Positions 37,831 to 39,246 of a stretch of 64,000 nucleotides of DNA are shown piece by piece. How positions within the stretch are numbered: position 1 is the stretch's first letter; every line of letters begins with the position of its first letter. The notes beneath the pieces were generated by a model. It was not told the origin of the DNA. It did not search any database and saw only the letters and a program-made list of their open reading frames with translations. The position numbers and the translations under genes were made by a program. The DNA is from a phage, in the NCBI GenBank assembly GCA_015370545.1, contig GCA_015370545.1_3932.1; one strand, written 5' to 3'.

Positions 37831-39246
37831 ATGAGCGAATTATTTAAACATGCGCACCTTCATTCAGGTCGAACTGAAAATGGTGCTGTAAACCATACTT
37901 CATCAATGTCTGCTCTTGTAGACTTTTACAAAGCTGCTGGTTCAAGCCGTAGCAATGTAGAAATCTTACCAGACCTGTTCTACAAAGCTTTGCGTGAGGA
38001 TGTTGATGTTGCAGTTCGTATTTTACTGCATATGCGAGATGTACGAGAAGGTATGGGTGAGCGTAAAGCCTTCAGAACTGTTTTGCTTCAAGCAATTGAA
38101 GATAAAGTTTTAGAACCTACACAGGTTCTTCGCATTATGGATAAGATTGCAGAACTTGGTCGTTTTGATGACTTTAAAATCTTCGTAGGTACTCGTTTTG
38201 AGACAGACGCCTTCAAGCATTTAGAAGCAGCATTACTAGACCCTGCAACAGCAGGTTTAGCAGCTAAGTGGCTACCACGAGTAAAACCACGCCACAAACA
38301 GTTTGTAAAACGTTTCTGTAAGTTTGCAAACTTAAGTGAGAAGGAGTATCGCACACTGTTATCTGCATTGTCTGATACGGTTGAGCAAAAAATCTCTGCT
38401 AATGAGTTTGGTAAGATTGACTACAGCAAGATTCCTTCACTCGCTGCTGCACGTTACCAAAAACTCTTTAACCGTAAAGATGGGGAACGTTACAAAGCTT
38501 ACATCGAGTCCTTATCAAAAGGTGAGACTAAGATTAACGCTGGTGCTGTTTACCCATACGATGTGATTAAATCTGTCAAGTATGGTAATGCAGATGTTGC
38601 TAATGAGCAGTGGAAAGCACTACCAAACTGGATGGCAGAAGGTGAAAACATCTTGTGTATGACTGATGTTTCAAGTTCAATGTCTTGGGTGAATCTTGGT
38701 TCAATCACTGCCCTTGATATTGGCGTGTCTCTTGCCTTGTATGTAGCAGAACGTAATACGGGTTGCTTTAAGAATGAGCTAATGGTTTACTCAACAAATC
38801 CTCATTTCATCGAACTGAGTGGTGATTTGAAAAACCGTCATCGTCAGGTGATGCGTCATGTTGAATATGGCTCAACTAACTTACAAGCAGCTTTTGACCG
38901 TATTCTTGAGACAGGTAAGAGAAACAACTTGACTCAGAAAGATATGCCAAGTAAGCTTATCATCTTCTCTGATATGGAGTTCAATCAGGTTGATGGTGCA
39001 AATGGTCGTACAAACTTTGAAGTAATTCGTAGTAAGTACAAAAAAGCTGGATACGAAATGCCACAACTAGTATTCTGGTACTTAGCAAACCGTAATGGTA
39101 CTTGCGAAGTGTCTGTTAAGGATAACGGTGTAGCAATGGTATCAGGGTTCTCTCCAGCCACTTTAAAAGCTCTGCTCGGTGGTGAGAAGTTTGACCCAAT
39201 CAGCGTAATGCTCAAAGCAGTAATGATTGACCGTTACATCTGGTAA
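37831..39246 (+). CDS. Ro60-like vWA-domain protein (possible TROVE-family RNA-binding protein)
   Basis: 471 aa; C-terminal domain with MIDAS-like DVSSSM and blocks aligning by eye to human Ro60 vWA (DVSASM; IVFTDNETF vs IIFSDMEFN; GFDTGALDVI vs GFSPATLKAL). Confidence 0.55.
   Translation: MSELFKHAHLHSGRTENGAVNHTSSMSALVDFYKAAGSSRSNVEILPDLFYKALREDVDVAVRILLHMRDVREGMGERKAFRTVLLQAIEDKVLEPTQVLRIMDKIAELGRFDDFKIFVGTRFETDAFKHLEAALLDPATAGLAAKWLPRVKPRHKQFVKRFCKFANLSEKEYRTLLSALSDTVEQKISANEFGKIDYSKIPSLAAARYQKLFNRKDGERYKAYIESLSKGETKINAGAVYPYDVIKSVKYGNADVANEQWKALPNWMAEGENILCMTDVSSSMSWVNLGSITALDIGVSLALYVAERNTGCFKNELMVYSTNPHFIELSGDLKNRHRQVMRHVEYGSTNLQAAFDRILETGKRNNLTQKDMPSKLIIFSDMEFNQVDGANGRTNFEVIRSKYKKAGYEMPQLVFWYLANRNGTCEVSVKDNGVAMVSGFSPATLKALLGGEKFDPISVMLKAVMIDRYIW

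What the first reader, a model, noticed from the sequence alone, without database searches (positions are those of the whole stretch)
37831..39246. Ro60-like vWA protein encoded directly upstream of the tRNA array
The C-terminal ~190 aa align by eye, block for block, with the vWA domain of human Ro60 (MIDAS-like DVSSSM vs DVSASM; IIFSDMEFN vs IVFTDNETF; VIRSKYKKAG vs ALREYRKK; GFSPATLKAL vs GFDTGALDVI). The N-terminal domain (~270 aa) is helical and shorter than a canonical TROVE module. Ro60/Rsr proteins bind tRNA-like Y RNAs, and this gene sits immediately before an array that contains orphan tRNA-like fragments and repeated structured spacers. A phage Ro60-like protein with its own tRNA-like partner RNA would be a distinct RNA-handling module; I cannot say from memory whether this is already described for this phage group.
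Basis: partly seen in the sequence, partly recalled or inferred. Interest (0 to 1): 0.8.

Follow-up and report, generated by a model that had tools for sequence, protein, structure and literature searches.

The report
Phage Ro60-like protein with partner RNAs
This Felix O1-type phage gene encodes a ring-shaped Ro60-like RNA-binding protein that has already been shown to block a bacterial defence, and just downstream of it sit four copies of a conserved small RNA hairpin (one carrying a scrambled tRNA shape) that follows this gene family across very different phages and is its likely RNA partner.

Summary

The protein is not new. It is 98% identical to Bas63 gp130, which a 2024 preprint described as Ro60-like, sitting upstream of the tRNAs, and able to counter the Ppl defence system.

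What appears to be new is the RNA side. The "repeated structured spacers" are four units at 39585-40446. Each has a 7-bp terminal stem followed by UACAGCAA. The fourth also carries a T arm, a closed acceptor-like hairpin and a D arm, which is the arm order of bacterial YrlA Y RNAs.

The same unit lies beside DUF2828 genes, always on the gene strand, in phages of Listeria, Campylobacter, Mycobacterium and Yersinia and in many metagenomic phages. It is usually embedded in tRNA arrays. Phage T5, which has tRNA arrays but showed no DUF2828 gene, has none.

Rfam's YrlA model does not match. The only Rfam resemblance, below threshold, is to Dictyostelium Class I RNAs. RNA binding is inferred, not shown.

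The parts
37762..37791 (+). sigma-70-like promoter (TTGACA-18-TAAAGT) 40 nt upstream of the gene
   Evidence: Consensus scan, 10 of 12 matches. This is a pattern match only.
37831..39246 (+). Ro60-like protein gene (DUF2828 + DUF7788; ortholog of Bas63 gp130). The N-terminal helical HEAT-like domain is about residues 1-265. The vWA/MIDAS domain is about residues 270-471.
39265..39385 (+). two sigma-70-like promoters (39265-39293 and 39356-39385) between the gene and the first tRNA. They probably drive the tRNA/RNA-unit array.
   Evidence: Sequence and consensus scan. Pattern match only.
39585..39652 (+). RNA unit 1, in the spacer between tRNA-Glu and tRNA-Met: stem AGACCAA/UUGGUCU, then U-UACAGCAA, a loop, and a 3' G
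   Evidence: Model R1 scores it 44.6 bits, but it was a training sequence. Its only Rfam hit is Dicty_Class_I_RNA at 19.7 bits.
39752..39810 (+). RNA unit 2, in the spacer between tRNA-Met and tRNA-Asn: stem AGACCGU/ACGGUCU, UACAGCAA
   Evidence: Dicty_Class_I_RNA 20.3 bits.
40233..40301 (+). RNA unit 3: stem AGACCAA/UUGGUCU, UACAGCAA, and an inner hairpin
   Evidence: It lies in a stretch that is nearly invariant across Ounavirinae.
40320..40446 (+). RNA unit 4, the YrlA-like candidate. Basal stem 40320-40326 / 40439-40445; UACAGCAA 40328-40335; anticodon-arm-like hairpin 40351-40367; T arm 40372-40388; closed acceptor-like hairpin 40389-40406; D arm 40409-40423.
   Evidence: In 10 Ounavirinae variants 96.2% of cells are paired, against 41-51% when partners are slid. 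The acceptor-like helix is 100% paired, with 3 of 7 pairs changed on both sides.
40447..40592 (+). long terminal stem closing a multiloop, directly after unit 4 and before tRNA-Lys. It belongs to the same non-coding gap; whether it belongs to the module is unknown.
   Evidence: Fold of the whole gap has z = -4.48. Compensatory differences between the Felix-type and Moogle-type sequences are visible in A2.
39412..44688 (+). array of 26 tRNA genes in which the units are embedded
   Evidence: ARAGORN; Rfam tRNA hits.

Best explanation
The gene encodes a Ro60-type RNA-binding protein: a helical HEAT-like domain joined to a vWA domain with an intact metal site. It belongs to the phage-rich DUF2828/DUF7788 family and is the ortholog of Bas63 gp130, a protein shown by experiment to counter the Ppl anti-phage system.

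Shown here: the fold, the conserved MIDAS residues, the orthology, and a tight genomic linkage between this gene family and a small RNA unit. The linkage is strand-specific and holds across many phage lineages. The unit has a 7-bp terminal stem that covaries, then one free base, then U-W-CAGCAA, then usually an anticodon-arm-like inner hairpin and an A run, and a G after the stem. This window holds four such units within the first 1.1 kb of the tRNA array. The fourth also holds a T arm, a closed acceptor-like hairpin and a D arm, which is the permuted-tRNA layout of bacterial YrlA Y RNAs.

Inferred: the units are transcribed with the tRNAs from the promoters at 39265 and 39356. The tRNA-processing enzymes cut them out, leaving ~60-130-nt RNAs whose 5' and 3' ends are paired, as in Y RNAs. 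The Ro60-like protein binds the stem-plus-UACAGCAA module. The tRNA-like or anticodon-arm-like part then engages a host tRNA/RNA enzyme, such as PNPase, an RNA repair ligase or a modification enzyme. The resulting particle would protect or repair the phage's tRNA and RNA pool when the host attacks RNA.

The anti-Ppl activity may be a separate activity of the protein alone, because gp130 alone is enough in T7 infection.
For: Protein:
- Pfam DUF2828 + DUF7788 and PHROG 850.
- AF2 model with pLDDT 89.6 and pTM 0.89.
- All 11 top Foldseek hits are full-length Ro60.
- D279, S281, S283, T349 and D381 are invariant.
- 98% identity and the same synteny as Bas63 gp130.
- gp130 counters Ppl and can be transferred to T7 (PMC11482910).

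RNA unit:
- Four exact copies, only at 39582-40335.
- In 65 distant DUF2828 loci the motif is about 7-fold enriched in the 500 nt after the gene: 66 hits against about 9 per bin, and 12 on the other strand.
- The sequence upstream of the motif is conserved in a fixed register, A-G-R-W-U.
- Covariation test not biased by selection: in 137 units picked by a pattern that left the positions free, the two inner stem pairs are formed in 97% and 93% of units, across 40 different triplets.
- The inner hairpin is 74% paired against 34-45% when partners are slid.
- Model R1 gives 52 hits in 792 kb, all on the gene strand, about 44 of them within 800 nt of the gene.
- R1 finds units beside the gene in phages outside its training set: Listeria (3 units), Campylobacter (2) and Yersinia (2). 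Mycobacteriophage Breezona has 3, the middle one with T, acceptor-like and D arms; two of these were found by eye only.
- Reverse test: of 120 IMG/VR stretches chosen by the RNA pattern alone, 33 encode a DUF2828 homologue, all on the same strand, and 20 lie within 460 nt.
- Phage T5's 25-kb tRNA region has no hit.

Unit 4:
- Compensatory changes in the acceptor-like hairpin.
- The same T, acceptor-like, D layout inside a UNCAGCAA unit recurs in L025, L031, L044, L073, L084 and Breezona.

Context: the Listeria phage gene lies 1.3 kb from an RtcB ligase gene, as rsr does in Salmonella (PMC7790460, listed).
Against: - No experiment shows that this protein binds any RNA.
- gp130 alone, from a plasmid or inserted in T7, restores T7 growth on a Ppl host. 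The one known activity therefore needs no RNA from the phage array.
- Rfam's YrlA and Y_RNA models do not match the window at E<=10.
- The YrlA motif GNCGAAN0-1G is not present in the expected place.
- Most pattern-selected units lie inside large tRNA arrays (105 of 120 stretches), and 87 of 120 have no DUF2828 gene within the stretch. The unit could therefore be a feature of tRNA arrays rather than of the protein.
- SP116 keeps the gene but has lost the 3' half of unit 4.
- There is only one negative control, T5.
- Some R1 hits are training sequences.
- The E-values of my own model are rough.
Confidence: 0.6

Rival explanations
1. The protein acts only through protein-protein contacts, for example with its vWA/MIDAS face blocking Ppl or another host factor. 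The UACAGCAA hairpins are punctuation of phage tRNA arrays, serving as processing, stability or folding spacers. They sit near the gene only because the gene is part of the tRNA module.
Against: Units lie directly beside the gene in many loci that have no tRNA within 6 kb: the L027-L043 group, and 8 of the 15 tRNA-free pattern-selected stretches carry the gene. T5 arrays lack the unit. The full two-domain Ro60 architecture, not just a vWA domain, is conserved, along with invariant basic residues in the helical domain (R40, R69, R72, R78, R111, K146).
Confidence: 0.25
2. The units are cis-regulatory parts of the gene's own mRNA, a leader or trailer that sets its translation or stability. The protein might feed back on them, but they are not free-standing partner RNAs.
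For: In several distant loci a unit ends immediately before the gene's ribosome-binding site: L025 5905, L030, L063 4060, L081 5911, and the Listeria and Campylobacter phages.
Against: In this window promoter-like sites separate the units from the gene, and the units lie between tRNA genes. Many units occur kilobases from any DUF2828 gene inside tRNA arrays. Units occur both upstream and downstream of the gene.
Confidence: 0.08
3. Unit 4 is only a decaying pair of tandem tRNA genes, the 3' part of one followed by the 5' part of the next, and has no function.
For: The Rfam tRNA model aligns 40332-40396 as a degraded tRNA with an anticodon-like arm and a T arm. One GenBank record annotates a tRNA-Thr there. 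Junctions between tandem tRNAs can mimic the pattern (L051).
Against: The 3'-type acceptor strand pairs with the following 5'-type strand and keeps pairing through compensatory changes in three Ounavirinae lineages. The same layout recurs independently inside UNCAGCAA units next to DUF2828 genes in at least five other phage lineages. An origin from dimeric tRNAs is itself the published model for how YrlA arose (preprint 10.1101/312249).
Confidence: 0.07

Closest known systems
Ro60 / Rsr with Y RNAs, especially bacterial YrlA (Rfam RF02553)
   Different: No sequence-level match to TROVE or Ro60, and the helical domain is shorter. The RNA does not reach any score with the YrlA model. The conserved motif is U-W-CAGCAA rather than GNCGAAN0-1G. 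Most units are minimal hairpins without T or D arms and are embedded in tRNA arrays.
Bas63 (JohannRWettstein) gp130, counter of the Ppl defence system (PhageMaP preprint, PMC11482910)
   Same: 98% identical protein with identical synteny. The authors already noted the Ro60-like structure, the position upstream of the tRNAs, and the possibility of Y RNAs among them.
   Different: They did not identify any RNA. They guessed that some annotated tRNA genes might be Y RNAs. The candidates found here are the unannotated spacers, not the tRNAs.
Thermus phage phiLo Ro60 with Yrl1 and Yrl2 (PMC12135203)
   Different: phiLo Ro60 is a canonical TROVE protein and its RNAs carry a CGAA motif. The protein family here is DUF2828 and the RNA motif is UACAGCAA.
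Dictyostelid Class I RNAs (Rfam RF01414; PMC7919456)
   Same: Length of about 60 nt. A 6-7-bp terminal stem that covaries. Immediately after it comes (C)UUACAGCAA. The loop is A/U-rich and ends in an A run. The 3' end is CUG(U). It is the only Rfam family that hits the units: best phage unit 36.7 bits, window units 19.7-20.3 bits.
   Different: All scores are below the gathering score of 41.5. Class I RNAs are eukaryotic, have their own DUSE promoter and were reported as unique to Dictyostelia. Their known direct binder is an RRM protein. Homology, convergence and chance were not separated here.
Stable small RNAs of unknown function in phage tRNA clusters (T5 RNAs I-IV, 1, 2, 3, X)
   Same: Small non-tRNA RNAs encoded between phage tRNA genes, some of them tRNA-like (annotation).
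   Different: The T5 region gives no hit with the unit model, and no DUF2828 gene was found in that region.

Membership tests
Ro60 / TROVE proteins (Pfam PF05731) | Significant match to the TROVE sequence profile or to Ro60/Rsr sequences | tested here: not met
   No PF05731 hit at E<=1. No Ro60 chain found by phmmer or hmmsearch at E<=10 with the protein, the family profile or the C-terminal domain.
Ro60 / TROVE proteins (Pfam PF05731) | Helical HEAT-repeat domain followed by a vWA domain, superposable on Ro60 | tested here: met
Ro60 / TROVE proteins (Pfam PF05731) | Intact MIDAS motif (DxSxS ... T ... D) in the vWA domain | tested here: met
   D279, S281, S283, T349 and D381 are invariant in 40 homologues that share as little as 40% identity with the window protein.
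Ro60 / TROVE proteins (Pfam PF05731) | Binds a Y RNA stem and misfolded RNA ends | not testable with these tools
   Only genomic linkage to a candidate RNA was obtained.
DUF2828 / DUF7788 family (Pfam PF11443 + PF25043; PHROG 850) | Scores above the curated cut-offs for both Pfam models, and full-length match to PHROG 850 | tested here: met
   PF25043 scores 147.4 bits (cut-off 27.1). PF11443 scores 102.2 bits (cut-off 29). PHROG 850 E 1.7e-183 over residues 1-471.
Bas63 gp130 orthologs (anti-Ppl) | Near-identical sequence in the same genomic position | tested here: met
   461 of 471 residues identical. Same order of genes: DUF5681 gene, this gene, then tRNA-Pro, Glu, Met and so on.
Bas63 gp130 orthologs (anti-Ppl) | Counteracts Ppl in this phage | not testable with these tools
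   The experimental result exists only for Bas63 and T7 (PMC11482910).
YrlA Y RNAs (Rfam RF02553) | Covariance-model score at or above gathering (69 bits) | tested here: not met
   No YrlA hit in window 36000-46000 at E<=1 or in 40143-40596 at E<=10. The model is in the library: it gives a partial 29.6-bit hit in L122.
YrlA Y RNAs (Rfam RF02553) | Arm order T arm, closed acceptor-like hairpin, D arm, enclosed by a stem formed by the RNA's two ends | tested here: met
   Window 40320-40446. Pair counts on 10 variants. Reference layout taken from preprint 10.1101/312249.
YrlA Y RNAs (Rfam RF02553) | GNCGAAN0-1G motif in the protein-binding stem | tested here: not met
   The only match in the region (40369) overlaps the T arm, and the motif count in the window is at chance level.
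YrlA Y RNAs (Rfam RF02553) | Encoded within 4 kb of the Ro60-type gene on the same strand | tested here: met
   Unit 4 starts 1074 nt after the stop codon, on the + strand.
Dictyostelid Class I RNAs (Rfam RF01414) | Covariance-model score at or above gathering (41.5 bits) | tested here: not met
   Window units score 19.7 and 20.3 bits. The best phage unit scores 36.7 bits.
Dictyostelid Class I RNAs (Rfam RF01414) | Short terminal stem kept by compensatory changes, adjacent 11-nt motif with invariant U3, C6, C9, A10, A11, and 3' CUGU | tested here: inconclusive
   The stem and its covariation are met. UUACAGCAA is present. The 3' end reads CCUGUU in most phages but UCUGG in this window. Common descent could not be tested.

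The most novel reading that the evidence does not exclude
DUF2828 proteins and the 'terminal stem + UUACAGCAA' small RNAs form one ancient ribonucleoprotein, parallel to Ro60 with Y RNA, that phages and eukaryotes share. Under this reading the Class I RNAs of Dictyostelium, whose function has been unclear since 2004 and which were thought unique to social amoebae, are the eukaryotic counterpart of the phage tRNA-array hairpins. Their missing protein partner would be a DUF2828-type Ro60-like protein. I did not verify that dictyostelids encode a DUF2828 protein. Eukaryotic (plant) members are indicated only by the literature hits and by my recollection of the Pfam description.
Probability: 0.15. 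Interest if true: 0.9.

Novelty: new variant of a known kind. Interest (0 to 1): 0.7.

Why it matters
The Ro60-like nature of the protein and its anti-Ppl role are already published, so that part is ordinary.

The RNA side may matter more, for four reasons.

1. It gives a concrete, testable candidate for the partner RNA that the Bas63 study only guessed at.
2. It defines a small-RNA motif that is widespread in phage tRNA arrays, is absent from Rfam, and is linked to one protein family in phages of Gram-negative hosts, Gram-positive hosts and mycobacteria.
3. It offers a handle on an old puzzle: why phage tRNA clusters carry stable non-tRNA RNAs.
4. It links these RNAs, tentatively, to the unexplained Class I RNAs of social amoebae.

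If the protein does bind these RNAs, phages would have a second, independent Ro60/Y-RNA-type system for handling RNA during conflict with the host.

Tried and rejected
1. The YrlA/Yrn1 motif GNCGAAN0-1G. The window count is at chance, and the local match lies in the T arm. Rejected as a binding-site marker.
2. Rfam Y_RNA and YrlA models. No hit.
3. The 165-nt gap between the gene and tRNA-Pro as a possible RNA gene. It holds two promoter-like sites and a hairpin, and no unit.
4. Sequence-level proof of homology to Ro60. Nothing was found by phmmer or hmmsearch. A profile-profile test was not possible because I had no Ro60 alignment.
5. The YrlA alignment from the Chen 2014 supplement. It is not held in the library.
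6. Fold search of AFDB, to look for eukaryotic (Dictyostelium) DUF2828 proteins. That library was not available.
7. The DUF5681 gene upstream (37378-37749) as a third component. It is linked only in Ounavirinae and Yersinia phage P778. Rejected as a general part of the module.
8. A loose stem-finding script (6 of 7 pairs). It picked up many false positives in coding sequence, so I used only strict sets or tests not biased by the selection.
9. My first stem test with 'far' motif hits as the control was weak. I replaced it with a dinucleotide-shuffle control.
10. An Rfam gathering-threshold scan of 16 array stretches. It showed only that they are huge tRNA arrays, and the listing was cut before any Class I-range scores.
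Full report
**What is at the coordinates**

The ORF at 37831..39246 (+) is real: ATG start, 471 aa. It ends 165 nt before the first of 26 tRNA genes, which span 39412-44688, all on the + strand. The window comes from a Felixounavirus. The gene region matches 253 phage records at 80-99% nucleotide identity, nearly all from phages of Escherichia, Salmonella, Shigella and Citrobacter. The gene order (DUF5681 gene, this gene, tRNA array) is the same in Felixounavirus, Mooglevirus and Suspvirus.

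**The protein**

- Pfam gives DUF7788 (residues 275-455, E 4.9e-43) and DUF2828 (E 3.9e-29). There is no TROVE hit at E<=1.
- PHROG 850, labelled "RNA-binding protein", matches end to end at E 1.7e-183.
- Sequence searches against PDB chains never find Ro60. This holds for the protein, for a 40-sequence profile and for the C-terminal domain alone.
- The fold evidence is clear. An AlphaFold2 model built on alignment A1 has pLDDT 89.6 and pTM 0.89. It is all-helical up to about residue 265, then alternating strand and helix.
- In Foldseek the eleven best PDB hits are all full-length Ro60/TROVE proteins: Thermus phage phiLo, Xenopus, human and Deinococcus Rsr. After them there is a gap of about three orders of magnitude in E-value to proteins that share only the vWA domain.
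- The MIDAS residues D279, S281, S283, T349 and D381 are invariant across homologues that share as little as 40% identity with the window protein. So are several basic residues of the helical domain.
- My reading: this is a Ro60-architecture protein from a family that has diverged beyond sequence recognition from TROVE.

**Prior art**

- The protein is 98% identical (461 of 471 residues) to bas63_0130 of phage JohannRWettstein (Bas63), in the same position.
- The PhageMaP preprint (PMC11482910) reports that gp130 has high structural similarity to Ro60 and lies directly upstream of the tRNA genes. It suggests that some of those tRNA genes might be Y RNAs.
- The same preprint reports that deleting g130 cripples Bas63 on a host carrying Ppl. 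gp130 alone, from a plasmid or inserted into T7, restores T7 growth on that host.
- GenBank annotators already call family members "RNA-binding protein" or, in mycobacteriophages, "Ro-like RNA binding protein".
- Canonical phage Ro60 proteins with Y-like RNAs are also known (PMC4201824, PMC12135203).

**The RNA side: what is in the window**

- Rfam's Y_RNA and YrlA models find nothing here. YrlA is in the library, as a partial hit elsewhere shows.
- The string AGAAGACCNNNTACAGCAA occurs four times without mismatch, all between 39582 and 40335 on the + strand. It occurs nowhere else in the 64 kb.
- Each copy begins a unit: a 7-nt strand (AGACCAA or AGACCGU), one free base, UACAGCAA, a loop, the complementary strand, then G.
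- Units 1 and 2 fill the Glu-Met and Met-Asn spacers. Units 3 and 4 lie in the 454-nt gap between tRNA-Asp and tRNA-Lys.
- Unit 4 (40320-40446) contains, in this order: an anticodon-arm-like hairpin; a T arm (GAAGG-UUCGAUU-CCUUC); a 7-bp hairpin ACUCGGC-AGAU-GUCGAGU; the linker UG; and a D arm (GUGU-AAUGGUA-GCAC).
- The order T arm, closed acceptor-like hairpin, D arm, all enclosed by a stem made from the two ends, is the layout solved for Salmonella YrlA (preprint 10.1101/312249).
- Across Ounavirinae the acceptor-like hairpin changes sequence but keeps pairing: ACUCGGC/GUCGAGU, then ACACG/CGUGU, then ACCCUUC/GAAGGGU.
- On ten variants 96.2% of cells are paired, against 41-51% when partners are slid. 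That helix is 100% paired, with three of its seven pairs changed on both sides.
- The Rfam tRNA model reads the 5' part as a decayed tRNA. This fits the published idea that YrlA arose from dimeric tRNA transcripts.

**Does the unit travel with the gene?**

I fetched 80 viral-contig loci that encode homologues; 65 of them share only 39-46% identity with the window protein.

- In those 65 loci the motif T-N-C-[AC]-G-C-A-[ACT] on the gene strand occurs 66 times in the first 500 nt after the gene and 29 times in the 500 nt before it. Elsewhere it occurs about 9 times per 500-nt bin, and in the same two bins on the other strand 12 and 11 times.
- The bases in front of the motif are conserved in a fixed register, A-G-R-W-U-N-N-N. 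A complementary strand follows more often than in dinucleotide shuffles: 61% against 24.5% at the same threshold.
By my own rough estimate, not a tool output, chance would give about 5.
- That pattern leaves the three N positions free, so it allows a covariation test that the selection cannot bias. In 137 distinct units the first two N pair with the two bases before AUCCU in 97% and 93% of cases, with 40 different triplets. The third N does not pair (30%). The stem is therefore 7 bp and real.
- In a curated alignment of 40 units, an inner 5-bp hairpin that played no part in the selection is 74% paired, against 34-45% when slid. It often carries a 7-nt loop of the form CU-NNN-AA, like an anticodon loop.
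- A covariance model built from that alignment (R1) finds nothing else in the window at E<0.5.
- R1 finds 52 hits in the 792 kb of distant loci, every one on the gene strand, about 44 of them within 800 nt of the gene.
- R1 also finds units next to the gene in phages that contributed nothing to the model. Listeria phage LMSP-25 has three in tandem just upstream of the gene. Campylobacter phage F361 has two, between tRNA-Met and the start codon. Yersinia phage P778 has two, as spacers in its array.
- Mycobacteriophage Breezona, read by eye, has three units between the gene's stop and a terminator. R1 gave only a weak hit (16.9 bits, E 0.038) to the third of them. The middle one contains a T arm, an acceptor-like hairpin and a D arm.
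- The same enclosed tRNA-like layout appears in L025, L031, L044, L073 and L084.
- In the reverse direction, of the 120 stretches chosen only by the RNA pattern, 33 encode a DUF2828 homologue. All 33 are on the unit's strand, and 20 lie within 460 nt.
- Phage T5's 25-kb tRNA region has no R1 hit at E<=1. That region holds 25 tRNAs and several stable RNAs of unknown function, and I found no DUF2828 gene in it.

**The complication**

The unit is also a feature of tRNA arrays.

- Of the 120 stretches, 105 contain tRNAs and 89 contain five or more.
- The typical context is a tRNA 3' end, then UUUU, the unit, G-UU(A/U)UAUU, and then the next tRNA's 5' end.
- Some units enclose a nearly whole tRNA body.

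So there is a three-way association between the gene, the unit and tRNA arrays. The data do not prove that the protein is the unit's ligand. Two observations argue against a pure "array punctuation" reading. Units sit beside the gene in many loci that have no tRNA within 6 kb. And eight of the fifteen tRNA-free stretches carry the gene.

**An unexpected resemblance**

The only Rfam family that touches the units is Dicty_Class_I_RNA (RF01414).

- The best phage unit scores 36.7 bits, and four others score 26.8-28.8 bits. The window's units 1 and 2 score 19.7 and 20.3 bits. The gathering score is 41.5.
- The Rfam consensus is GaUcuC-CUUACAGCAA-(A/U-rich loop)-AAAAA-...-GagAuC-UG.
- It shares with the phage unit the terminal covarying stem, the adjacent UUACAGCAA, the A run and the 3' CUG(U).
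- Kjellin et al. (PMC7919456) describe these features as defining Class I RNAs and report the class as unique to Dictyostelia. They did not search phages.
- I found no paper that connects Class I RNAs with Ro60, TROVE or vWA proteins.
- I could not test whether dictyostelids encode a DUF2828 protein, because the AFDB library was unavailable.
- This stays a lead, not a membership claim.

**Mechanism**

Shown:
- the Ro60-type fold with an intact MIDAS site;
- orthology to an experimentally validated counter of Ppl;
- a conserved, covarying RNA unit linked to the gene family on the same strand;
- a YrlA-like permuted tRNA domain in one unit per locus in several lineages.

Inferred:
- The units are transcribed with the tRNAs. 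Promoter-like sites lie at 39265 and 39356.
- The tRNA-processing enzymes cut them out as Y-RNA-like molecules with paired ends.
- The protein binds the stem-plus-UACAGCAA module.
- The tRNA-like part recruits a host tRNA or RNA enzyme.

Two precedents support this picture. One is Rsr with YrlA and PNPase in bacteria. The other is phiLo Ro60 with its Yrl RNAs and PNPase. The RtcB neighbour in Listeria phages points to RNA damage and repair. Because gp130 alone suffices against Ppl in T7 infection, either that activity needs no RNA or host RNAs can substitute.

I put 0.6 on the composite explanation. I put 0.25 on the protein acting without these RNAs, with the units serving as array elements. 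Smaller weights go to a purely cis-regulatory role for the units and to unit 4 being a dead tRNA dimer.

**Verdict**

- The partner-RNA candidate is new as far as the searchable literature shows. So are its spread across phage lineages and its resemblance to Class I RNAs.
- Together these make this a new variant of the Ro60/Y-RNA kind of system.

Noticed in passing
window 40447-40592: Directly after unit 4 a very long terminal stem (UAAUUAUCUUUGUAGAUAAG... pairing with ...CUUAUCUACAAAGAUAAUUUA) closes a multiloop. The whole 454-nt gap folds with z = -4.48. The Moogle-type sequences show compensatory changes (GUAG/CUAC versus GCAG/CUGC). It is a separate conserved structured RNA of unknown role.
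   Followed up: partly
window 41464-41538: A tRNA-like sequence (GGGACGA ... GGGGUUCAACUCCUCCGUCCCAUGCCA) that ARAGORN does not call. Rfam scores it only as a weak tRNA-Sec-like hit (23 bits). It may be a decayed or unusual tRNA.
   Followed up: no
window 40905-41242: A 338-nt gap in the tRNA array. It holds the best sigma-70-like promoter of the region (40920-40948, 11 of 12 matches) and weak tmRNA-like Rfam hits (41053-41242 and 40846-41121). There is no UACAGCAA unit here.
   Followed up: no
window 42770-43327 and 43716-44513: Two protein-coding ORFs (185 aa and 265 aa) are embedded inside the tRNA array on the tRNA strand. Both are conserved in Bas63, SP116 and Sf14; the Sf14 homologue of the second is annotated 'putative membrane protein'.
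   Followed up: no
L001 (Salmonella phage SP116) 11838-12073, aligned to window 40143-40596: SP116 carries a deletion that joins the T arm of unit 4 to the T arm and 3' end of tRNA-Lys. This removes the acceptor-like hairpin, the D arm and the 5' part of tRNA-Lys. It looks like recombination between the two T-arm sequences. The Ro60-like gene is retained.
   Followed up: partly
L210 (Listeria phage LMSP-25) 1428-1979 and 5808-7019: A ROOL RNA (88.5 bits, just under the gathering score of 99.1, E 6.8e-17) lies about 1 kb upstream of the DUF2828 gene, among tRNAs. An RtcB 'tRNA-splicing ligase' gene lies 1.3 kb downstream. This puts a large ornate RNA, the Ro60-like protein, the hairpin units and an RNA ligase in one neighbourhood.
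   Followed up: no
L090 5748-6218: A GOLLD RNA (176.5 bits, above gathering) sits inside a metagenomic phage tRNA array that also carries four UWCAGCAA units. Other such arrays hold permuted tmRNA, a Polynucleobacter-1 RNA and a group I intron (L109, L115, L124).
   Followed up: no
L027, L028, L049, L069 and relatives, about 60-330 nt after the DUF2828 gene: In one group of distant phages with no nearby tRNAs, the second unit after the gene has a 215-236-nt insert with long conserved stretches (for example ...GUCAUCAACUUCUCA...GAAGUAUAGUAGGCCGUCGAAGCAGAAG...GCUGCCGAGCUGAAUAA...). This is a larger conserved RNA enclosed by the same basal stem and UACAGCAA. It matches no Rfam family at the gathering threshold.
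   Followed up: partly
window 37378-37749: The 123-aa gene just upstream (annotated DUF5681; basic N-terminus KGQSGNPSGRPKGSRNK) accompanies the Ro60-like gene in all Ounavirinae and in Yersinia phage P778. It was not found in the other 65 distant loci.
   Followed up: yes
L212 (phage T5) 3285-3645, 4809-4980, 5839-6084, 6878-6950, 13849-14567: T5's tRNA region is annotated with eight stable RNAs of unknown function, some called tRNA-like. None matches the unit model. They may be a different answer to the same biological need.
   Followed up: partly
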